From a virus: a stretch of DNA of 64,000 nt. The notes beneath the pieces are model-generated. The model was not told the DNA's origin. It worked only from the letters and a program-made list of their open reading frames with translations, and did not search any database. This document shows positions 6,186 to 16,336 of this stretch, in pieces; position 1 is the stretch's first letter; the number at the start of each line of letters is the position of its first letter. Location: IMG/VR virus record IMGVR_UViG_3300046387_001332. One strand, 5' to 3'. Made by a program: the position numbers and the translations under genes.

Positions 6186-6713
6186 ATGCCAAAAAACAAA
6201 TTATGTCTCGGACTGGATTTAAGTTCTACTACGGTTGGTTATTGTTTTTCATCATCTTCAACTGATATTTTAAAAGCAGGATTCATTCCAGTTCATAAAG
6301 AAATCTCCATTAGAAGTAAAGCACATAAGGTTGCAGAGGAATTGAAAAATATTCAACTGCAACCTTTTGTTGTTATTGTAGAAGATTCGTTAAGTGGATT
6401 TGGTGGTGGGAGAACAAGTCAGCAGACTATTGTAAAATTAGCAAAGTGTAATGCCATAATAAGTTATGTTGTAGAAGAGTTGTATAATATAGAAGTACAA
6501 CATATAAATGTATCTACCATGCGTAAAGCAGTATTTGGAAAAAGCAGAGAAAAAGGATTAGATAGTAAAACATTTGTAAAGTGCAATCTTGAAAATATGC
6601 TTGATTTATCCGACTTTATTCACTATAATTCTAAGAATAATTATGATAAAAAAAACTATGATATGCTTGATGCCGTAGTCGCATCTTTGTATTATTGGTA
6701 TTCTTTAAAATAG
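6186..6713 (+). CDS. RuvC-like Holliday junction resolvase
   Basis: LGLDLSSTTVG (catalytic D), VIVED (E) and DMLDA (DxxD) in RNase H-fold order. Confidence 0.8.
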   Translation: MPKNKLCLGLDLSSTTVGYCFSSSSTDILKAGFIPVHKEISIRSKAHKVAEELKNIQLQPFVVIVEDSLSGFGGGRTSQQTIVKLAKCNAIISYVVEELYNIEVQHINVSTMRKAVFGKSREKGLDSKTFVKCNLENMLDLSDFIHYNSKNNYDKKNYDMLDAVVASLYYWYSLK

Positions 6714-7642
6714 TGGGCATCTCTGAACAAAAACTTCTCAATCTTCTGCAAAAAGTATTAGGAGCTGGAAAAATCGTCTCTAAAGACGAGGCTATGTTTT
6801 TGTGTCCATTTTCCCATCATAGAAAACCCAAACTTGCGATTAATTTATCCACACAAAGATGGCAAAGTTGGATTGATACAAATGCAAAGGGAAGATCAAT
6901 CTATGGTTTATTCAAAAAGATGAATGTTGCTCCGCAATATCTTACAGAACTTTCAAGAATTGTAAAGATACCCAAAAGTACGCAACAAAGTGAAGAAGAA
7001 CAAATTAAAATTCATCTTCCATACGAATTTACCTCATTGCGGTATGATACTGAAAAAACGAGATCATCAAAGGCTGCGTTTAATTATCTAAGACAAAGAA
7101 ACATATTTTCTTATGATATAGAAAGATATAATATTGGATATTGCGAAAGTGGTGATTATGCGAATAGAATCATAGTACCATCATATGATTGCGACAATAA
7201 TTTAAATTATTTTATAGCAAGAGATTTTACCGGAACTGCGTATTTACGATACAAAAATCCACCAGTCAGTAAAGATGTTGTGGTGTTTGAGAATCAAATT
7301 GATTTCTCCGAACCACTTATTTTTTGTGAAGGTGTATTTGATGCTATGGCAATTCGTCGAAATGCAATTCCACTATTGGGGAAGAATATTCCAAGTAAAC
7401 TAAAAACAAAATTAGTTGAACATGGAGTTTCTGAAATATGCATTGTTCTTGATAACGATGCATTTAAAAACGCATTACAAATTTCCGAAACATTGATGAA
7501 CGAGAATGTTCGTGTCAAATTAGTAAAAATGGGAAATGACGATGCGGCGGACATTGGGTTTAATAAAATAATTCATAAAATTAGAAATGCAGAACTTCTT
7601 GATTTTAGTGAATTGATGAAGCAAAAGTTATGCATGAACTAA
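6713..7642 (+). CDS. DNA primase (T4 gp61/DnaG-like, TOPRIM)
   Basis: N-terminal CPFSHH zinc-ribbon remnant, YLRQR, RIIVP, YFIAR, CEGVFDA, VLDND, DAAD. Likely GTG start at 6713 overlapping the upstream stop. Confidence 0.85.
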   Translation: MGISEQKLLNLLQKVLGAGKIVSKDEAMFLCPFSHHRKPKLAINLSTQRWQSWIDTNAKGRSIYGLFKKMNVAPQYLTELSRIVKIPKSTQQSEEEQIKIHLPYEFTSLRYDTEKTRSSKAAFNYLRQRNIFSYDIERYNIGYCESGDYANRIIVPSYDCDNNLNYFIARDFTGTAYLRYKNPPVSKDVVVFENQIDFSEPLIFCEGVFDAMAIRRNAIPLLGKNIPSKLKTKLVEHGVSEICIVLDNDAFKNALQISETLMNENVRVKLVKMGNDDAADIGFNKIIHKIRNAELLDFSELMKQKLCMN

Positions 7643-8334
7643 AAACAAATTTAAAGAACGTTGAAAAAGTATATCATCTCGCAGACATTCATATAAGAAA
7701 CGTAAAAAGACACAACGAATATTCATTGGTATTTGAAAACTTTTACAAACAAGTAAAAGAAGATAATCTTGATAACGCAATTATTTTTATTGGTGGAGAC
7801 ATTGCTCATGCCAAAACAGAAATGAGTCCAGAGTTGATTCATCAAATATCTTCATTTTTAAGAGAGTGTTCTAAACTTCATCCAACGATTGTTATTGCTG
7901 GTAACCACGATTGTAATTTAAACAATCCTGATCGTCTTGATGTATTGTCTCCTATTATGGACATGATGGATGATGACAATTTATTTTATTTAAAAGATAG
8001 TGGTGCATATAAAATAGGTGATGTCGCAATTGGTGTATTTGGTATTTTTGATGATCCCAACGAATATGTACGTGGAACTGATATAACAGATAAATCTATT
8101 AATACAAAGATTGCAGTTTATCATGGTGCAGTAAAAAGAAGCAGAACTGATGTTGGTTATGTTGTTATGGGAGGTGACATTGAGTTGCCTATGTTCAATG
8201 GATATGATATAGTCATGTTGGGTGATATCCACAAATATCAAACACTACAAGAATACCAAACAGAGCATAGATTTATACCCGAATCTAAAGTTGATGAATA
8301 TAAACTAGAAGGATGGGAACTTGCAGATGTCTAA
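7630..8334 (+). CDS. Mre11/SbcD/gp47-like metallophosphoesterase, N-terminal portion only
   Basis: Motifs ADIH, GGDIAH, AGNHD, YHG and LGDIHK are present; the downstream YxGS motif is missing and appears in ORF 9249. Confidence 0.85.
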   Translation: MHELKTNLKNVEKVYHLADIHIRNVKRHNEYSLVFENFYKQVKEDNLDNAIIFIGGDIAHAKTEMSPELIHQISSFLRECSKLHPTIVIAGNHDCNLNNPDRLDVLSPIMDMMDDDNLFYLKDSGAYKIGDVAIGVFGIFDDPNEYVRGTDITDKSINTKIAVYHGAVKRSRTDVGYVVMGGDIELPMFNGYDIVMLGDIHKYQTLQEYQTEHRFIPESKVDEYKLEGWELADV

Positions 8335-9259
8335 ACGATTTTTAATAAAGTGCAACCACATTCACATTGGTGATATTTTATTTGCAAGCAGTGTTGCAAA
8401 AAAATTAAATGAAGAACAAGGACCGTGTTCTGTCCATTTCTCAGTAAATTACTTGCAACCGATTGAGTTGCTCAATAATAATCCTTACATTGATAAAGTC
8501 TTTTTTAATGAAAGTTTCGGAACATACGATGAAGTTTTCAATTTAATCGGAGACACAGACACACTAAATCCATATGAATCTGCGGTATCTCAATTTCAAA
8601 GAATGTGTAATATAAAAAACTTCGATGATACCTTTGAAATTTATACAAACCCTTCTTTAGATTATTCAATTAGTGAAAGTTTTCGTGAACTTGTTAAAAT
8701 AGGAGATTGGCCAAACTCATTAATTAAAGTAGGTTATCAGTGTGACTGGGATAAAAAAAGTTTTTTATTTACCGAAGAACAATACGAACGTGCTGAACAC
8801 GGAGAAGACGGAACAGGATATGGTGATGGTTCTCGTAATGTATACGATATTATCAATTGTCTAGAAATTAATTCTAATATTATGTTATTTGCGTTGGGTC
8901 TTGATGATAAAATTTCAAAAAGATATCCTGCTATCAATTCAACTAGCAAATTTACTTTTACTGCAAGTTTAATTAAGAATTGTGATTTTGTTATAGGAGC
9001 AGAGGGGTGTCTAACAAACATATCATCTGCGTTGGGTGTGAAAACAATAATTACCACAGATTACATACACCAAATGTTTGGACCCAAAGGAATTAAATGG
9101 CAACAAGAAGGTGGTGATTTAAATAACCTAGAATGTCGTAAACCTTTTTTAGGACCTTGTAATTATTTTCCGAAAGCAGATCACATCCACCTCAATCCAT
9201 ATCTCACCGATCAACAAGTTGGAGAAGAAATTTTAAAAGTAGTTACACATGGAAGATAA
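8327..9259 (+). CDS. GT9-like (heptosyltransferase-type) glycosyltransferase
   Basis: HIGDILF, LLNNNPYIDKV and LIKNCDFVIGAEG..ISSALGVKT match the GT9 pattern. ATG at 8327 overlaps the upstream stop. Confidence 0.65.
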   Translation: MSKRFLIKCNHIHIGDILFASSVAKKLNEEQGPCSVHFSVNYLQPIELLNNNPYIDKVFFNESFGTYDEVFNLIGDTDTLNPYESAVSQFQRMCNIKNFDDTFEIYTNPSLDYSISESFRELVKIGDWPNSLIKVGYQCDWDKKSFLFTEEQYERAEHGEDGTGYGDGSRNVYDIINCLEINSNIMLFALGLDDKISKRYPAINSTSKFTFTASLIKNCDFVIGAEGCLTNISSALGVKTIITTDYIHQMFGPKGIKWQQEGGDLNNLECRKPFLGPCNYFPKADHIHLNPYLTDQQVGEEILKVVTHGR

Positions 9260-11849
9260 AGAGAGTTACGTAAAAATAAAAAGACACAACGGTCAGAAAC
9301 CAGTTGTAGTGTATTCGGGAAGCATGATTCAACAAAATCATGGTGAAAAACCATTTGGTCATGGTTATGTTTTGTGGGACCTGAAATCACGTACACATAA
9401 GCACACAGAAGTATTCAATGAATATGGATATTATACCATTGAAGTAAGAGATGGAAAGTGTGTAAGTGACTTGGATAAACTTCCCACGAAAGCAAGATTG
9501 CGGGTAAAAGTATTTAACACAACTGCAACTGAAACTAAAGAAATAATTGCAGAGATACGAAAGAAAACAAGCATAACTGACTTAAATGTCACACGGTGCG
9601 ATGCAATATCTGAAGCAAAAAAGTTTGATCGTGACAATAAGTTTGATTTTGGTGACATATCACTTGTACAAGTACAAAATGACTTAATAGAAGATTATCT
9701 TCGCAGAAATTTTGTTGTTGATGATGACCAAGTAAAAACTGCTCTTGATATTAATAAAGAAATCAACGATAAACTTGTAGTAAAAGAAGTTCTTCGTAAT
9801 TGCATCTGGAAACCAAAGAAGTTTGAATTCTCAAATATGTTTAGTTACGGTGATGGTAACATTGTAGATTTTTCAAATATGAAAAGTGTCATGGGATTGT
9901 TTGCTTCAAATGCAAGTGGAAAAAGCAGTGTAATGAGTGCATTGAGTTTTTGTTTGTTTGATAAATGTGATCGTGCTTTTAAGGCATCCCATGTTTTAAA
10001 CACACAAACTGATTCATTTTATTGTAAACTAAATTTTGAAATAGGTGGAGTAGATTATTTTATTGACCGTCAAGCAACAACAAAGAAGAACGGTGACGTA
10101 ACTGTCGTGGTAGACTTCTGGAAGCATGATATCGATGGTAACACAATATCGTTAAACGGAGAACAGAGGGCTGGGACAAATGCTATAATTCGTGATCATG
10201 TGGGTTCGTATGATGACTTTGTTTTGACTACATTAAGTTTGCAAAATAATAATGCAATTTTTATAGATAAAAGTCAAAGTGAACGAAAAGATTTACTTGC
10301 ACAATTTATGGGCATAGATACATTTGATCAATTACACTCTACTGCTTCCGAAGACATTAAAGAAATAAATGCTTTACTTAAAAGATTTAATCGTGACGAT
10401 TTTGATGAAACTCTTGCAGATGTAAAAGAAAAACTTGATAGAATAAATGAAGAGTATAATCAACAAGATAGTAAGACTAATGTAGCATTACTTGAACAGA
10501 AAAGATTAAATAAAGAATTGGCTGATAAAAATTCATTATTTAAAAATTGTTCGTTTGATGAAACCGCAGTTGATATTGATAAATTAGAATTTAATAAAAA
10601 TAATTTAAAAGAAAGACTTGAAATAGCAAAAGATAATCGTTCGGATGAATCCACAAGAAAGAAAAGTTTAACATTAGAAAAGAAAAATTGCTCACAACAA
10701 ATATCCGAACTAAAAGGTACAGAAGAAAAGTATATAAGTGTATTAAAAGTTCGTGAAGATATTACAAAAGTAGAAAAAGATTTGGCCGTACTGAGAACAT
10801 CAGTTAATGCTAAGTTAGATAAATTAAAACATTATGATAGTCATCAATATGACCCAAAGTGTAAGTTTTGTGTTAACAATTCTAAAAATCTTATTGAAAG
10901 TGCAGAGCAAACTAAAACTGAACTTGATAAAGACAAAGCAGCGGCGGACGAGTTGGTAAAACAAAAAACTATTTTTAGTGATATACTTGAAGATAATAAA
11001 GATGTAGAATCCAATTATGAATTGCTAAAAGATTTAAATAATAAATCTAATCAACTTGTGTTTGAAATAAACGAAGCAGATTCTAAAGTTCTTGCTTTGT
11101 CTAGTATGATTGAATCTCTTGAAAAAGATATTGTTTTAAATGATAAAAATATTAAAGAATATTATGAGTGCAAAGACATAATTGAGTTTAATAAAAATAT
11201 ACAAAAAGAAGTTGGTGAATTAAATTTAAAATTAAATTCTGTAAATAAAATTGCAAATGATGAAAGTGAAAAACTTCAAACACTTTTCGGTGAAGTTAAA
11301 ATTGTAGAAAAAGAGCATGATGATGTAATCTCTTCAATTGAAGAAGCAAAAAGTTATGAAAGAAAAAAACGAGGATACGAGTTGTATCTCGATGCTGTCA
11401 AACGAGATGGTATATCATACGAACTTATTTCCAAAACTATTCCAAGTATTGAAAGTGAAGTAAATAATATACTTTCTCAGATTGTTGATTTTGGTATGAA
11501 TCTTGAAATGGACGGAAAACATATTTACTCAAAAATAACCTACGAGGATCGGCATTGGCCATTAGAGATGTGTAGTGGTATGGAACGATTCATAAGCAGT
11601 ATTGCTATGCGTGTAGCACTTATTAATGTAAGTAGTCTTCCTCGTTCTAATTTCCTTGTTATTGACGAGGGGTGGGGTACATTAGACGGAGACAATATTA
11701 GTAGTGTATTTAACTTATTTACTTATCTAAAAGGTCAGTTTGAGTTTATCGTGGTCATTAGTCACTTGGATGTTATGCGAGATATGGTGGATGAAATTGT
11801 AGAAATTCAAAGAGAAGGTTCATTTAGTAAGATAAATTACGGAGCATAA
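9249..11849 (+). CDS. C-terminal part of the Mre11/SbcD nuclease fused to a Rad50/SbcC/gp46 ATPase
   Basis: N-terminal VYSGSMIQQNHGE..HGYVLWD; Walker A ASNASGKSS; coiled coil with CKFC zinc hook; signature CSGME; Walker B LVIDEG; H-loop ISH. Confidence 0.88.
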   Translation: MEDKESYVKIKRHNGQKPVVVYSGSMIQQNHGEKPFGHGYVLWDLKSRTHKHTEVFNEYGYYTIEVRDGKCVSDLDKLPTKARLRVKVFNTTATETKEIIAEIRKKTSITDLNVTRCDAISEAKKFDRDNKFDFGDISLVQVQNDLIEDYLRRNFVVDDDQVKTALDINKEINDKLVVKEVLRNCIWKPKKFEFSNMFSYGDGNIVDFSNMKSVMGLFASNASGKSSVMSALSFCLFDKCDRAFKASHVLNTQTDSFYCKLNFEIGGVDYFIDRQATTKKNGDVTVVVDFWKHDIDGNTISLNGEQRAGTNAIIRDHVGSYDDFVLTTLSLQNNNAIFIDKSQSERKDLLAQFMGIDTFDQLHSTASEDIKEINALLKRFNRDDFDETLADVKEKLDRINEEYNQQDSKTNVALLEQKRLNKELADKNSLFKNCSFDETAVDIDKLEFNKNNLKERLEIAKDNRSDESTRKKSLTLEKKNCSQQISELKGTEEKYISVLKVREDITKVEKDLAVLRTSVNAKLDKLKHYDSHQYDPKCKFCVNNSKNLIESAEQTKTELDKDKAAADELVKQKTIFSDILEDNKDVESNYELLKDLNNKSNQLVFEINEADSKVLALSSMIESLEKDIVLNDKNIKEYYECKDIIEFNKNIQKEVGELNLKLNSVNKIANDESEKLQTLFGEVKIVEKEHDDVISSIEEAKSYERKKRGYELYLDAVKRDGISYELISKTIPSIESEVNNILSQIVDFGMNLEMDGKHIYSKITYEDRHWPLEMCSGMERFISSIAMRVALINVSSLPRSNFLVIDEGWGTLDGDNISSVFNLFTYLKGQFEFIVVISHLDVMRDMVDEIVEIQREGSFSKINYGA

Positions 11850-11892: not shown

Positions 11893-12936
11893 ATGGAAAA
11901 TTCCGAAAAAAATCAAAAAGTCCAAGAAACCCTGATTAAAGCAGGATTGCGTAAAGGATACTTTACACTTGTAGAGGGTGTGTATGATCCTGGTATTTTA
12001 AAAGCAGTATTTCTAGCAGGAGGTCCTGGTTCGGGTAAATCTGCTACGGTTGATACATTATTCAATTTTCCACCAGATGCGGCTAATTTATCACCAAGTG
12101 GATTGAAGATTGTTAATAGTGATCCTGCATTTGAGATATTACTTAAAAAAGCAGGATATGATCTGAATCTATCTAAAATGGATGATGAAACATTTGCCAA
12201 AGTAACAAGTGACGATCCAAATAGTATTCGTTCCCGTGCGAAGAAAATTATGCTTAAACAATTTGAGTTATTTAAAGATGGTCGTTTGGGTATTATCGTA
12301 GATGGAACTGGTGATAATTATAACAAAATATCAAAGCAAAAGAAAGAACTTGAAAAACTTGGATACGATTGTTATATGGTATTTGTAAATACAACATTAG
12401 ATGTGGCACAACAAAGAAACGCAATGCGTAAAAGAAAACTTCCACGAAAAATAGTAAAAGATATTTGGACAGATGTACAAAAAAATCTTGGTAAGTTTCA
12501 AGGTTTGTTCAAAGCAAATTTCGTTATAGTAGACAATTCAGAAGATACTCGCAGTAAAACAAAACCTGGTAGATTAGATTTAGTTCCACGGTTAATGAAA
12601 GAAGTTGCAAGATTTATATCCAAACCAATTAAAAATCCAATTGGAAAGAAATGGATTAAAATGATGATGGCACATGATAAAATGAGTAAAAGTGGTGATA
12701 AACGAAATCGTGTTACAGAAGAACTTGATTTAGTAAAGATGGAAGATGTTGTTCTTCCTATGGATTTAGAGAGACACTTAAGTCGTTCTATTCACGTAAT
12801 TAAAAAATTTAATTTAAATGAAAGAAAGAATTTAGCAGTATTAACACGATTAGTGGAGAGTTTACAACTTAGCAGAAATCAGTTAGTAAAGTATTTTCAT
12901 AAAATCCGTACCATGAAATTCAAAGGAGAAGATTGA
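11893..12936 (+). CDS. P-loop kinase (zeta-toxin/Pnk-like), probable head-internal protein
   Basis: AVFLAGGPGSGKS, IIVDGTG, QQRNAMRKR lid; domain begins right after LVE; upstream TATTTAT. Confidence 0.7.
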   Translation: MENSEKNQKVQETLIKAGLRKGYFTLVEGVYDPGILKAVFLAGGPGSGKSATVDTLFNFPPDAANLSPSGLKIVNSDPAFEILLKKAGYDLNLSKMDDETFAKVTSDDPNSIRSRAKKIMLKQFELFKDGRLGIIVDGTGDNYNKISKQKKELEKLGYDCYMVFVNTTLDVAQQRNAMRKRKLPRKIVKDIWTDVQKNLGKFQGLFKANFVIVDNSEDTRSKTKPGRLDLVPRLMKEVARFISKPIKNPIGKKWIKMMMAHDKMSKSGDKRNRVTEELDLVKMEDVVLPMDLERHLSRSIHVIKKFNLNERKNLAVLTRLVESLQLSRNQLVKYFHKIRTMKFKGED

Positions 12937-13289: not shown

Positions 13290-13817
13290 ATGAGCATTAA
13301 AGAATATAACAGATATAAAGATGATCCTTTTTGGATGAAATCAAAATATGATGGAGTGTCGGGTGAACAAAGATTACCTGTTCAAAGAAGATTACGCAAG
13401 GGTGGGATTAAGTTTAAAAAAGGTGATGAGATTTTATATTACCCGAGGGGTAAAGTGATTATGGTAGGAAAAGAAGCAGAGCAAGCATGGAGAGATTTCC
13501 AATCAGCTGCTTCTGATGAAGATTTTTATATGTCGCAATACGAGGAGTCAATTAATATGGAAAAAACAAATGAAATTAAATTAACAAGTCCAGAGTACAA
13601 AAAAGCAATTAACTTTATGTCTGATATGCATTCTAGTATTCTTAAAGCAAAAGATAAAGTTATAAGTTTTCTAAGAAGAAAAGGATATGACGATATGGCA
13701 GATGAACTTGACGGAATGTCTAAGATTGAGTTCAATAAATTTGTTCAACGTAAAGTGTATGAAGAAAAGTTAAGAAAAGAAATAAGAAATATTCTTACTG
13801 AGATTTTAAACAAATAG
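13290..13817 (+). CDS. Hypothetical protein
   Basis: ATG at 13290 after GAGGA; coupled to both neighbours. Confidence 0.6.
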   Translation: MSIKEYNRYKDDPFWMKSKYDGVSGEQRLPVQRRLRKGGIKFKKGDEILYYPRGKVIMVGKEAEQAWRDFQSAASDEDFYMSQYEESINMEKTNEIKLTSPEYKKAINFMSDMHSSILKAKDKVISFLRRKGYDDMADELDGMSKIEFNKFVQRKVYEEKLRKEIRNILTEILNK

Positions 13818-16336
13818 TGATCACAAAAAATACAGATATTTTAACCAAAAAACTTACTGATTATTTGGTTGAAGAAACTTTAGAGGAGGACTCTAAAGTA
13901 AAAACTATTCTTGGAATTTATCCTGGACGGTTTCAACCTGCTGGTATACACCACTATAAAACATACAAGCATTTAAAAAAGAAGTTTAGCAAATCTTTTG
14001 TTGCAACCAGTAATAAAACTAATACAACAGATAGTCCATTAAATTTCAAAGAGAAAAAAATGGTATGGTTAAAGCATGGAGTTAAAGATGTTGTTGCTGT
14101 TAAGAATCCATATGTATGCGATGAAATTACTAAACGTTACGACGAAGATACTACCGCAGTGGTTTTCATGTTTGGTGAAAAAGATGCAGGACGATTAAAA
14201 ACAACAAAGGCAGATGGTTCACCTGCTTATTACCAACCATACGAAGAAAATAAAAGAAACTTAAAAGGTTTTAAGCAACATGGTTATTTCATAGTTGCTC
14301 CTCATGTGAGTATTAAGGTGCTTGGCAAAGAAGTAAGTGGTACACGGATACGAGATTTACTTGGTTCTCCTAAACACGATGAAATGACAAAAATTCAAGC
14401 ATTTGAGGAATTGTTTGGTTGGTATGATGAAAAGATATTCAAATATTTGACAAAAAAATTCGGAACATTGTTTGAGAATAGAGAAATTTATGAAAGTTTC
14501 ATACATGAGTATCCAAACTTAGAAGGTTATATACATAATTTACCAAATGTATGTAATGAAATAAGTTCTGTGTTTGCACATGGAAAATCATTAGTAGATG
14601 ACGGACCTAGTATTTTTTATCCAGGAAAAACATACGAGAAAAATACATCCAATTATGCCGAGCAACTTGGGTACGAATTAATTGATCACATTGCTGGTAA
14701 AAACAATGAAGGAAGAAACACAAGTTACCGAGAGTGGGGAAACTACGCAGGACCAGTACCCGCAGTTAGTTTTTACACATCGGGTGTTTCAGATGAACAA
14801 ACTCCCAACAACCAAGTTGACACAGAATCTACGAGAACTGCACATGGCCAGTGGGAAAGTTTTATATCTCAGGTGGCAGAAACTGCTGGATATAAACTTG
14901 TAGACTTTATTGGTTCTGAAAAATCTATTCGTAAAAAAGATGAACAAGGTGACGAAGATTTGAAATCAGGTAATACTATTGACACCGATAAAGCAGAGGA
15001 AGGTGACAAAATAGACCAAGGTGTAAAGGGTCAAGTAGTAAACGAAAATTTATTAACAGAAGGAGGTGCGGCTGGACACATGAGTCATCCCTTTGATGAT
15101 CGTGAGTTAACATTTGGTGATTTAAAAGAAATGATTCGTAGATCACTTGCAGGTGAATTAAATGTTGAAAAAGAAGTTACTGAAAAACTTGATGGACAAA
15201 ACTTAATGTTTTCTTGGAAAGATGGTCAGTTGGTGGCCGCAAGAAATCAAGGTCATCTAAAAAACGCAGGTGCGGCTGCTCCTAATGTAAAAGAATTTTC
15301 AAGTATATTTGCTGATCGTCCTGATAATATTCGTGACGCATTTGTAGGTGCAGTTGAAGATTTAGAAACTGCTATATCTGGTCTTACAGATGCACAAAAG
15401 AATAAAGTATTTCGTGAAGGTGAACGTTTTATGAATATAGAGGTAATGACACCTGCGACACAAAATGTTATTCCTCAGAATGTAGATATGTTAGTATTCC
15501 ACGGAACACAAGCATATGATTCCGCAGGAAAAGCAGTATCAGAAGATTCCGAGGGAAACGATATAACAGGTGAACTTAAAGACTCTGCAAGAATGCTTAA
15601 AGGTATGTTGAAACAAATAAACGCAGATGTTCAAAAACGATATTCATTGAACGCACCAATTGTGGTGGAACTTCCTAAAAGTAAAACATTTGGAGATTCA
15701 TATGCAAAGTATTCTGCTAAAATAGATAAACTTAAAAACAAATTTAGATTAAAAGATAACGATAAAGTAATGAAGTATCACGATTCTTGGTGGAGAAACT
15801 TGCTTGATAAACAACAAACAAAAAATAAAGAGATATTTCCCTCGAATGTATACGAAGCACTCGTTGGTCGTTGGGCATATAATGATAAGTCTAACAAAAT
15901 CACTACAATTAAAAAAGAATTATCTGATCATCCAAAACTACTTGCTTGGGTTACTAAATTTGAAAAAGAAGATATTACAAAACAATTTGAAGAAAATATG
16001 TGGCCATTTCAATTCATCTTTTTGAAATTGGGTGCGGAAGTATTAAAAAATGTAAAAGGATTCGTTGCGGCTGGTGGAAGTGATGATATTGCAAAAGCAC
16101 TTGATTCTCACGTTAAAACACTTGAAGGCAAGAAGATAAGTTCGGTGGAATCACCTGATAAGTTTAAGAAAGACATGGAGAAACTAAATAAGAATCTTGC
16201 TCGTCTTAATTCTATTGGTGGAAGCAATGCAATTGCACCAACAGAAGGTGTAGTATTTCAATACAAAGGTGGAACATATAAACTCACAGGTACATTTGCT
16301 CCTATAAATCAAATTATGGGTATAATGAGGTTTTAA
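13817..16336 (+). CDS. Multidomain protein: HIGH-type nucleotidyltransferase domain plus a C-terminal ATP-dependent ligase-like (KxDG) domain
   Basis: GIYPGRFQPAGIHH..GEKD..VSGTRIR in the N-terminal part; LLTE|GGAAGHMSHPFD, EKLDGQNL, NIEV, EGVVF and YKLTG in the C-terminal part. Confidence 0.7.
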   Translation: MITKNTDILTKKLTDYLVEETLEEDSKVKTILGIYPGRFQPAGIHHYKTYKHLKKKFSKSFVATSNKTNTTDSPLNFKEKKMVWLKHGVKDVVAVKNPYVCDEITKRYDEDTTAVVFMFGEKDAGRLKTTKADGSPAYYQPYEENKRNLKGFKQHGYFIVAPHVSIKVLGKEVSGTRIRDLLGSPKHDEMTKIQAFEELFGWYDEKIFKYLTKKFGTLFENREIYESFIHEYPNLEGYIHNLPNVCNEISSVFAHGKSLVDDGPSIFYPGKTYEKNTSNYAEQLGYELIDHIAGKNNEGRNTSYREWGNYAGPVPAVSFYTSGVSDEQTPNNQVDTESTRTAHGQWESFISQVAETAGYKLVDFIGSEKSIRKKDEQGDEDLKSGNTIDTDKAEEGDKIDQGVKGQVVNENLLTEGGAAGHMSHPFDDRELTFGDLKEMIRRSLAGELNVEKEVTEKLDGQNLMFSWKDGQLVAARNQGHLKNAGAAAPNVKEFSSIFADRPDNIRDAFVGAVEDLETAISGLTDAQKNKVFREGERFMNIEVMTPATQNVIPQNVDMLVFHGTQAYDSAGKAVSEDSEGNDITGELKDSARMLKGMLKQINADVQKRYSLNAPIVVELPKSKTFGDSYAKYSAKIDKLKNKFRLKDNDKVMKYHDSWWRNLLDKQQTKNKEIFPSNVYEALVGRWAYNDKSNKITTIKKELSDHPKLLAWVTKFEKEDITKQFEENMWPFQFIFLKLGAEVLKNVKGFVAAGGSDDIAKALDSHVKTLEGKKISSVESPDKFKKDMEKLNKNLARLNSIGGSNAIAPTEGVVFQYKGGTYKLTGTFAPINQIMGIMRF

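What the first reader, a model, noticed from the sequence alone, without database searches (positions are those of the whole stretch)
7630..11849. Mre11 nuclease domain split in two by an inserted glycosyltransferase gene, with the second half fused to Rad50
Seen: ORF 7630-8334 has phosphoesterase motifs I-V (..LGDIHK) and stops about 35 aa later. The remaining strands (VVYSGSMIQQNHGE..HGYVLWD) start ORF 9249, which continues into a complete Rad50/SbcC. A GT9-like gene fills the gap and overlaps both neighbours, suggesting translational coupling. Known: in Mre11/SbcD the YxGS motif follows motif V within one domain. Inference: an ancestral SbcD-SbcC fusion was cut in a surface loop (..EGWELAD / EDKESYVKIKR..) and now reassembles from two chains. 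This locks a cargo gene inside a probably important recombination gene, with no intron, intein or homing nuclease in sight.
Basis: partly seen in the sequence, partly recalled or inferred. Interest (0 to 1): 0.8.

Follow-up and report, generated by a model that had tools for sequence, protein, structure and literature searches.

The report
Split phage Mre11-Rad50 gene hosting glycosyltransferase
In a group of marine T4-like phages the DNA-repair nuclease Mre11, normally fused to Rad50 in one protein, is encoded in two pieces with a sugar-transferase gene between them, and it most likely reassembles from two chains through a small zipper-like module at the break.

Summary
ORF 7630-8334 carries Mre11 motifs I-V. 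ORF 9249-11849 begins with the missing core strands and capping domain and continues into a complete Rad50. A 310-aa gene (ATG 8327) fills the gap in a third frame and overlaps both neighbours.

Thirty-five independent marine contigs share this layout, so it is not a misassembly. Forty-six more distant loci, and most of the 150 listed database clusters, encode one contiguous ~1050-aa Mre11-Rad50 protein.

The break lies in the hairpin turn of a ~40-aa strand-helix-strand-strand mini-module, not in a bare loop. The module sits between motif V and the next core strand. Some relatives carry it in frame and uninterrupted.

In other lineages the same break is empty, or holds related zinc-finger/PD-(D/E)xK endonuclease-like genes. 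The glycosyltransferase is therefore one occupant of a recurrent intercistronic site and is not shown to be the cause of the split.

The insert folds as a GT9-like GT-B enzyme and is under purifying selection. A complex prediction supports reassembly of the two chains (0.89 against 0.45 for the best control).

This is a genes-in-pieces case like Aeh1 nrdA/mobE: a new variant of a known kind. Other first-stage readers noted the same stretch of this genome.

The parts
6695..7642 (+). DNA primase gene directly upstream; its end overlaps the start of the Mre11 N fragment by 13 nt. This is context: same operon-like block, and synteny is conserved in relatives.
   Evidence: PHROG 47 E 7e-34; primase is found just upstream of the Mre11 part in nearly all loci.
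7630..8334 (+). Mre11 N fragment (234 aa): phosphoesterase motifs I-V of the nuclease core, plus a 25-aa tail.
   Evidence: All 34 marine loci measured have exactly 702 nt. dN/dS is 0.08 for the core.
8257..8331 (+). Tail of the N fragment (aa 210-234): first strand, helix and second strand (GW motif) of the mini-module. It is absent from relatives with a short loop.
   Evidence: In the AF2 model of a relative with the module in frame, the equivalent residues form a strand, a helix and a strand. dN/dS is 0.11. The tail touches the head of the C fragment in the complex model.
8327..8334 (+). Junction 1: the ATG of the inserted gene overlaps the stop codon of the N fragment (8 nt).
   Evidence: The pattern ATG-n-n-TAA/TAG is conserved in all marine split loci.
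8327..9259 (+). Inserted gene (310 aa): GT9-like GT-B fold glycosyltransferase. Acceptor and donor are unknown.
   Evidence: AF2 pLDDT 91.7. Best Foldseek matches are GT9 3tov (E 2e-8), WaaF, WaaC and TibC. 226 homologues were found, with no Pfam family. A 41%-identical homologue lies in a sugar-pathway cluster. dN/dS is about 0.1.
9249..9259 (+). Junction 2: the ATG of the C fragment overlaps the end of the inserted gene (11 nt). No clear Shine-Dalgarno sequence lies upstream.
9249..9287 (+). Head of the C fragment (aa 1-13): last strand of the mini-module.
9288..9803 (+). Remainder of Mre11 on the C fragment (aa 14-185; the boundary to Rad50 is approximate): the two core strands after motif V (aa 18-25 and 39-44), the capping domain and the linker.
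   Evidence: Profile alignment to Thermotoga and Pyrococcus Mre11. In the complex model C 19-22 pairs with N 193-197 and C 40-45 pairs with N 13-16. The fold of the fused relative matches Mre11/SbcD including the capping domain.
9804..11849 (+). Rad50/SbcC part of the C fragment: Walker A, coiled coil with CxxC hook, signature motif, Walker B and H-loop.

Best explanation
This is a genes-in-pieces Mre11-Rad50.

What is there. The phage lineage inherited a single fused Mre11-Rad50 gene, the T4 gp47/gp46 equivalents in one chain. In this marine clade it is encoded as two cistrons. The N chain carries the five metal-binding motifs. The C chain carries the last two core strands, the capping domain and all of Rad50.

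How it works (inferred). The nuclease is rebuilt non-covalently. The two C-chain strands slot back into both sheets of the phosphoesterase sandwich. A ~40-aa strand-helix-strand-strand mini-module, cut at its hairpin turn, re-pairs its second strand (N tail) with its third strand (C head) as an extra zipper. N, insert and C are read from one transcript, and overlapping stop/start codons couple their translation.

Origin (inferred). The gene between the halves is a functional GT9-like glycosyltransferase. It occupies an intercistronic site that is empty in some lineages and holds homing-type endonuclease genes in others. Most likely the break came first, made or exploited by a mobile endonuclease gene, and the glycosyltransferase gene later settled in the landing site.

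Shown: the gene anatomy, the conservation, the position of the break in the fold, the module, the alternative site states, the insert's fold and selection.
For: Anatomy and relatives:
- ORFs and domains are as described.
- 35 marine contigs share the layout, against 46 fused loci.
- Of the 122 sequences scored (112 of the 150 listed clusters plus the window and nine loci), 104 have fused forms with a short loop, before one truncated fused protein was removed from the split class.
- The marine split clade is monophyletic with support 100.

Position of the break:
- It maps between motif V and the next strand of Thermotoga Mre11.
- An AF2 model of a fused relative with the module in frame (pLDDT 91.8) places the break in a hairpin turn. 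That model matches Mre11/SbcD at E 2e-13.

Reassembly:
- Complex prediction scores 0.89 against 0.45 for the best of 3 controls. That mark was reached by 58 of 80 solved complexes and 2 of 110 mismatched pairs.
- The three runs share at least 93% of contacts, and partner pLDDT is at least 73.
- Solved Mre11 structures may explain the pass, so it shows likeness rather than binding.

Constraint on the halves:
- Catalytic residues are invariant.
- dN/dS is 0.08 for N and 0.11 for the tail, and N is 702 nt in 34 of 34 loci.
- N is the only Metallophos match in three relatives that are 65-84% complete.

Other states of the site:
- Empty (L089, L093, L094) or a 173-nt spacer (L087).
- Homologous endonuclease-like genes in L001, L091 and L095.
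- A split-empty form and a fused-with-module form are sisters with support 98.

Insert:
- GT9-like fold, dN/dS about 0.1, and a homologue in a glycan gene cluster.

No splicing route:
- No intron model matches, and no + strand terminator-like site lies inside the block.

Precedent:
- Aeh1 NrdA reassembles through tails that arose with the mobE insertion (PMC3045599).
Against: - No experiment or read data. Reassembly, nuclease activity, co-transcription and coupling are all inferred.
- The order of events is not resolved. Deep nodes of the full-length tree are open.
- The N-domain tree rejects a single clade of module or split bearers (AU p 0.007). The glycosyltransferase insertion could therefore be an independent event that cut a contiguous, module-bearing gene.
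- Recombination within the locus weakens any tree-based reading.
- Motif V reads G-D-I-H rather than the canonical G-H-x-H. This holds for the whole family and is not special to split forms.
- One marine contig (L097) has an in-frame TGA in N.
Confidence: 0.8

Rival explanations
1. The glycosyltransferase gene itself fractured a contiguous, module-bearing Mre11-Rad50 gene in the ancestor of the marine clade. On this view the event was independent of the endonuclease-occupied and empty splits seen elsewhere.
For: - All 35 marine loci carry the insert and none is empty.
- The module and split states are scattered on the N-domain tree, and one clade is rejected (AU p 0.007), so repeated events at this site are plausible.
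- Contiguous genes with the module in frame exist.
Against: - A glycosyltransferase gene has no known means of inserting itself.
- The identical break point in the hairpin turn is shared with lineages that lack it.
- Tail and head sequences are recognisably homologous between the window and L001.
- Three lineages carry homologous endonuclease-like genes at exactly this site, which offers a mechanism for making the break.
Confidence: 0.25
2. The N fragment is a decaying remnant. Only the Rad50-containing chain works, or the complex has lost its nuclease.
For: - One contig (L097) has an in-frame TGA at an invariant Arg codon.
- The N chain lacks two core strands, so it cannot fold completely alone.
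Against: - N has exactly the same length in 34 loci, with dN/dS 0.08. All metal-binding residues are invariant.
- The C chain retains the complementary Mre11 strands and the capping domain, which are also conserved.
- No other Metallophos gene is found in long relatives.
Confidence: 0.04
3. The halves are rejoined by RNA splicing, protein splicing, ribosomal bypass or frameshifting, so that a single-chain protein is made.
For: - T4-like phages are known for introns, inteins and the gene 60 bypass (review PMC2988022).
- A relative (L095) has a LAGLIDADG intein elsewhere in the N fragment.
Against: - No Rfam intron match at E up to 1.
- The 914-nt gap is entirely filled by a conserved protein-coding gene under purifying selection, in a different frame.
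- The three genes use three frames, so no in-frame intein is possible.
- Tail plus head total about 38 aa, too small for an intein fold, and there is no conserved nucleophile at the junctions.
- Empty-split relatives simply have a stop followed by a start.
Confidence: 0.03
4. Assembly artefact or chimeric contig.
For: None found.
Against: The same layout, frames and junction overlaps occur in 35 contigs from different metagenomes, at 69-97% identity. Composition is even across the region.
Confidence: 0.01

Closest known systems
Aeromonas phage Aeh1 nrdA-a / mobE / nrdA-b (genes in pieces; Crona et al. 2010, PMC3045599)
   Same: - A contiguous essential enzyme gene of a T4-like phage is broken inside a catalytic domain into two cistrons with a gene between them.
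- Extra C- and N-terminal tails sit at the break.
- Function is restored by non-covalent assembly, without splicing.
   Different: - The target here is a fused Mre11-Rad50.
- The occupant in this window is a glycosyltransferase-like gene, not a homing endonuclease.
- The tails are the two halves of a small folded module that also exists uninterrupted in relatives.
- The same site is seen empty, endonuclease-occupied or glycosyltransferase-occupied.
- Assembly and activity are untested here.
T4 gene 39/60 with mobA, and gene 43A/43B of Aeromonas phages 25 and 44RR (review PMC2988022)
   Same: - These are split replication and recombination genes in T4-related phages.
- In phage 25 and 44RR the same break holds either a seg endonuclease gene or only an untranslated spacer. 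This parallels the endonuclease-occupied, spacer and empty states found here.
   Different: - A different enzyme is involved.
- No case with a non-nuclease cargo gene is described in that review.
- No pre-existing mini-domain at the break is described there.
Canonical Mre11-Rad50 / SbcCD (T4 gp47/gp46; Thermotoga 3qg5, Pyrococcus 1ii7, E. coli 6s6v)
   Same: - Phosphoesterase motifs, the core strands after motif V and the capping domain.
- Rad50 Walker motifs, signature motif, coiled coil and CxxC hook.
- The fold of a fused relative matches at E 2e-13.
   Different: - In known systems Mre11 is one chain and Rad50 another.
- In this phage family they are fused, and here the chain boundary has moved into the Mre11 core.
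- Motif V has Asp in place of the first His.
GT9 heptosyltransferases (3tov, WaaC, WaaF, TibC)
   Same: - Two-domain GT-B fold.
- An N-terminal G-D motif aligns to the 3tov G-D motif.
   Different: - About 10% identity, no Pfam hit above threshold, and profile E only 0.22.
- Donor and acceptor are unknown.
- It is a phage gene placed inside a DNA-repair operon.

Membership tests
Mre11/SbcD nuclease | Five calcineurin-like phosphoesterase motifs with metal-binding residues | tested here: met
   Pfam Metallophos E 2e-8. Motif residues are invariant in 20 relatives, with positions. Motif V has Asp-x-His instead of His-x-His throughout the family.
Mre11/SbcD nuclease | Complete core sandwich (strands after motif V) plus capping domain | tested here: met
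   Present, but on the second chain. Evidence is the alignment to Thermotoga Mre11 across the break, strand pairing in the complex model, and the fold of a fused relative matching Mre11/SbcD including the capping domain.
Mre11/SbcD nuclease | Nuclease domain on one polypeptide | tested here: not met
   Stop at 8332-8334, with the next part starting at 9249 in another frame.
Mre11/SbcD nuclease | Mn-dependent exo/endonuclease activity with Rad50 | not testable with these tools
   Needs biochemistry.
Rad50/SbcC | Walker A, Walker B, signature motif, H-loop, long coiled coil with CxxC zinc hook | tested here: met
   PHROG 77 E 8e-41. Motifs at aa 221-226, 538-541, 776-779, 805-808 and 837-840.
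Genes in pieces made by mobile endonuclease insertion (Aeh1 nrdA type) | Contiguous orthologue in related phages, with the break inside a conserved domain | tested here: met
Genes in pieces made by mobile endonuclease insertion (Aeh1 nrdA type) | The intervening gene is a homing endonuclease | tested here: not met
   In the window the insert is GT9-like over its whole length. Endonuclease-like genes occupy the same site only in other lineages: L001, L091 and L095.
Genes in pieces made by mobile endonuclease insertion (Aeh1 nrdA type) | Extra tails at the break that help assembly | tested here: inconclusive
   The tails exist, are conserved (dN/dS 0.11) and touch each other in the model. Their need for assembly is untested.
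CAZy GT9 / GT-B glycosyltransferase | Two Rossmann-like domains (GT-B) closest to heptosyltransferases | tested here: met
   AF2 pLDDT 91.7. Foldseek gives 3tov E 2e-8, and 1psw, 2h1h and 4rap at E about 1e-6 to 1e-5.
CAZy GT9 / GT-B glycosyltransferase | Sequence membership (family HMM) and catalytic residues | tested here: inconclusive
   No Pfam GT9 hit; DUF354 is below threshold at E 1e-3. The profile against 3tov gives E 0.22, aligning the N-terminal G-D motif. Asp16 is invariant.
Group I/II intron or intein | Ribozyme core, or an in-frame HINT domain, between the halves | tested here: not met
   No Rfam match. There are three different frames, and the gap is filled by a conserved ORF.
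DUF4177 (proposed for the mini-module by another first-stage note) | Match to the Pfam model | tested here: not met
   No hit at E up to 10, either for the joined tail+head or for six natural in-frame modules. Only the strand-helix-strand-strand topology is shown.

The most novel reading that the evidence does not exclude
The ~40-aa mini-module may be a portable split-tolerance adaptor that travels with homing-type endonuclease genes. On this reading the mobile cassette brings the two halves of a small complementing domain, so that the essential nuclease survives being cut. The module persists in frame when the endonuclease gene is lost. The resulting intercistronic site then becomes a reusable landing pad for cargo genes such as the glycosyltransferase. 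That would be a general, transferable natural mechanism of protein-fragment complementation spread by selfish DNA.
Probability: 0.3. Interest if true: 0.75.

Novelty: new variant of a known kind. Interest (0 to 1): 0.6.

Why it matters
- It adds Mre11-Rad50, a central recombination and repair machine, to the short list of phage enzymes known to work from gene fragments.
- It offers a natural series of states at a single site: contiguous, contiguous with module, split-empty, split with endonuclease gene, split with cargo gene. That series makes the evolution of genes in pieces directly comparable.
- The mini-module is a candidate natural complementation tag for a metallophosphoesterase core. 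This could interest protein engineers and structural biologists working on Mre11.
- It shows that a break first tolerated for selfish DNA can become a stable home for an ordinary metabolic gene in an abundant marine phage clade.
- In practice, annotation pipelines will miscall these genes. The Microcystis phage orthologue is labelled only 'AAA domain containing protein', and the N fragment looks like a stray phosphoesterase.

Tried and rejected
- Intron: Rfam scan of 7000-10000 at E up to 1 found nothing.
- Intein, bypass or frameshift: rejected on frames, on the conserved ORF in the gap, and on tail and head size.
- DUF4177 identity of the module: no Pfam hit for the joined tail+head or for natural in-frame modules.
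- DNA-glycosylation link: no thymidylate-synthase/hydroxymethylase family gene in three long relatives that are 65-84% complete. This gives no support for a hydroxymethyl-base acceptor, though fragments cannot prove absence.
- Own-genome search: no genome is held for this window.
- Complex prediction failed three times for machine reasons before it ran.
- Promoter scan: counts were not above shuffles and are uninformative.
- Literature: no paper in the held library describes a split Mre11 or a natural phage Mre11-Rad50 fusion.
- A single origin of all module or split bearers was tested and rejected on the short N-domain alignment (AU p 0.007). I do not lean on this, because recombination in the locus is evident.


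Full report
**Observation.**
- ORF 7630-8334 (234 aa) is a calcineurin-like phosphoesterase (Pfam E 2e-8) and matches the SbcD-like PHROG 100 at E 3e-17.
- Its five motif positions are aa 19-21, 55-60, 91-94, 165 and 198-201. They are invariant in an alignment of 20 split and fused relatives.
- ORF 9249-11849 (866 aa) matches the SbcC-like PHROG 77 only from about aa 90. It has Walker A, a CxxC hook, the signature motif, Walker B and the H-loop.
- The three genes lie in three different frames.
- The middle gene most likely starts at ATG 8327, which overlaps the N stop by 8 nt. The C start at 9249 overlaps the middle gene's stop by 11 nt.
- The rest of the window encodes T4-type terminase, portal, prohead protease, gp23 capsid, sheath and baseplate proteins. 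This is therefore a T4-like myophage with about 30% G+C.

**Not an artefact, and derived from a fused gene.**
- In the phage collection, Microcystis phage Mel-JY01 and a 735-kb megaphage encode one contiguous Mre11-Rad50 protein of 1066 and 1202 aa. A 484-kb phage (LR756508, L001) is split at the same place.
- A scan of viral contigs gave 79 loci. Thirty-four marine loci have the window's exact layout: same three frames and same insert family at 50-98% identity. Forty-three are contiguous.
- With the window and the three phage records, that makes 35 split (L001 included) and 46 fused. One more marine contig, L097, was found later.
- The marine split clade is monophyletic with support 100, and deeper nodes are unresolved.
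- A search of 1.84 billion representatives with the N fragment found 3193 relatives. Of the 122 sequences scored (112 of the 150 listed clusters plus the window and nine loci), 104 have contiguous genes with a short loop, before one truncated fused protein was removed from the split class.

**Where the break lies.**
- A profile of contiguous relatives aligns to Thermotoga maritima Mre11 straight across the break: the motif V strand, a short loop, then the Y-P-G-S strand and the following strand.
- The N chain therefore lacks two strands of the core sandwich plus the capping domain, and these open the C chain.
- A complex prediction of N (234 aa) with C 1-190, each supplied as an alignment, scored 0.89 against 0.45 for the best of 3 controls. 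That mark was reached by 58 of 80 solved complexes and 2 of 110 mismatched pairs.
- The runs shared at least 93% of contacts, and partner pLDDT was at least 73.
- The tightest contacts are C 19-22 with N 193-197 and C 40-45 with N 13-16. These are the expected sheet neighbours.
- Mre11 structures are solved, so this pass may reflect likeness rather than proof of binding.

**The mini-module.**
- Split forms carry about 25 extra residues on the N chain and about 13 on the C chain, compared with short-loop relatives.
- Another first-stage note (e1-5685297) suggested a small module cut in two, and this led me to look for uninterrupted versions.
- Such versions exist. Several contiguous ~1085-1100-aa proteins (P0126, P0180, P0205, P0203, P0179, P0140) have a homologous ~40-aa insertion in frame in this loop.
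- An AF2 model of P0180 residues 1-400 has pLDDT 91.8, with the module region at 89-96. It folds the insertion as strand 211-218, helix 219-226, strand 231-236 and strand 239-246, followed at once by the core strand.
- The whole model matches Mre11/SbcD at E 2e-13.
- The break of the window, and of all other split forms, maps to the hairpin turn between the second and third strands.
- In the complex model the N tail (aa 207-234) touches the C head (aa 5-17).
- Pfam does not recognise the module, so the DUF4177 label is not supported.

**Other states of the same site**:
- L089 has the N stop and C start overlapping (TAATG).
- L094 has an 11-nt overlap and L093 a 16-nt spacer.
- L087 has a 173-nt AT-rich spacer with its own ribosome-binding site. 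None of these four has an inserted gene.
- L001, L091 and L095 carry zinc-finger plus PD-(D/E)xK endonuclease-like genes: Pfam TnsA-like E 6e-6, PvuRts1I-like (weak), and PHROG 1271 'HNH endonuclease' E 4e-15.
- These three genes are homologous to each other, at 43% identity (E 5e-42) and 26% identity (E 2e-5).
- L095 also has a LAGLIDADG intein right after motif III.
- On an N-domain tree the module and split states are scattered, and one clade is rejected (AU p 0.007). A split-empty form and a contiguous module-bearing form are sisters with support 98.
- Recombination inside the locus is evident. Pairwise identities of N and C correlate at r 0.76, but insert against C only at 0.23. The window's nearest relatives differ for N, insert and C. 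I therefore treat the order of events as open.

**The inserted gene.**
- It has 226 homologues and no Pfam family.
- An AF2 model (pLDDT 91.7) matches GT9 enzymes best: 3tov at E 2e-8, then WaaF, WaaC and the protein heptosyltransferase TibC.
- A profile search reaches 3tov only at E 0.22, aligning the N-terminal G-D motif.
- A 41%-identical homologue lies among glycosyltransferase, aminotransferase, epimerase and acyltransferase genes.
- dN/dS is about 0.1, yet the protein diverges faster than its neighbours: median identity 63% against 82-83%.
- No thymidylate-synthase-family gene was found in three long relatives, so nothing points to DNA as the acceptor.
- Unchecked first-stage notes report a sugar-pathway island and Ser/Thr-rich virion proteins in this genome (e1-5685290, e1-5685291). 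Virion or glycan modification is a reasonable guess and nothing more.

**Function of the halves.**
- The N fragment is exactly 702 nt in all 34 loci measured, with dN/dS 0.08 for the core and 0.11 for the tail.
- It is the only Metallophos match in three relatives that are 65-84% complete.
- No intron model matches, and no + strand terminator-like site lies inside the block.
- No clear Shine-Dalgarno sequence precedes the C start. This fits translational coupling through the overlapping stop and start codons, which are conserved in the whole clade.

**Comparison and novelty.**
- The closest precedent is Aeh1 nrdA split by mobE. There, tails that arose with the insertion are essential for assembling the enzyme (PMC3045599).
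- The T4 review lists nrdA, gene 39/60 and gene 43 as split genes. It notes that in phages 25 and 44RR the same break holds either an endonuclease gene or only a spacer (PMC2988022).
- I found no report of a split Mre11 or of these natural fusions.
- New here are the target enzyme, a non-nuclease occupant fixed in an abundant marine clade, and a break point inside a small folded module that also exists uninterrupted.
- This is a new variant of a known kind.

**Limits.** Everything about assembly, activity and expression is inferred.

Noticed in passing
L095:4501-6156 (and L096): The N fragment of a split relative (551 aa) also carries an intein with a LAGLIDADG domain, inserted directly after the G-N-H-D motif. 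This one Mre11 gene therefore holds both an intein and an endonuclease-like gene at the split site. A SegE-type GIY-YIG gene lies just upstream of the primase.
   Followed up: partly
L097:4168-4872: One marine clade member has an in-frame TGA in place of the invariant Arg102 codon of the N fragment, and gene callers split it into 101 + 123 aa. It could be a sequencing error, a nonsense allele or a recoded stop. It was seen in one contig only.
   Followed up: partly
window 7630-11849 compared with L004-L038: There is mosaicism inside the locus. The window's C fragment is closest to L005/L006 (88-89%), its N fragment to L012/L014/L035 (91%), and its insert to L026/L038/L020 (69-70%). The insert comes in shorter (291-299 aa) and longer (304-315 aa) forms.
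   Followed up: partly
L083-L086:5001-5861: A 286-aa homologue of the insert (41% identity) sits in a cluster with GT1, GT2 and GT7-like genes, KAS III, hexapeptide transferase, PhyH, DegT aminotransferase and epimerase genes. Whether these contigs are viral or cellular was not determined.
   Followed up: no
window 11893-12936 and 13817-16336: A zeta-toxin/AAA_33-like P-loop kinase (Pfam E 3e-11) lies directly downstream of Rad50 and is syntenic in all marine relatives. It is followed by an 839-aa protein with no Pfam match.
   Followed up: no
L002:4244-4756 (Microcystis phage Mel-JY01) and L098:899-1360: GIY-YIG (SegE-like) genes sit next to the primase/Mre11-Rad50 block in several relatives. 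L098 also has NUMOD3 and TnsA-like genes nearby. This neighbourhood is rich in homing-type endonuclease genes.
   Followed up: no
window 6186-6713 / 6695-7642 / 7630: The RuvC-like resolvase, primase and Mre11 N fragment genes overlap end to start (by 19 and 13 nt), forming one tightly packed block with the split gene. The order RuvC-primase-Mre11 is conserved even in the 484-kb phage L001.
   Followed up: partly
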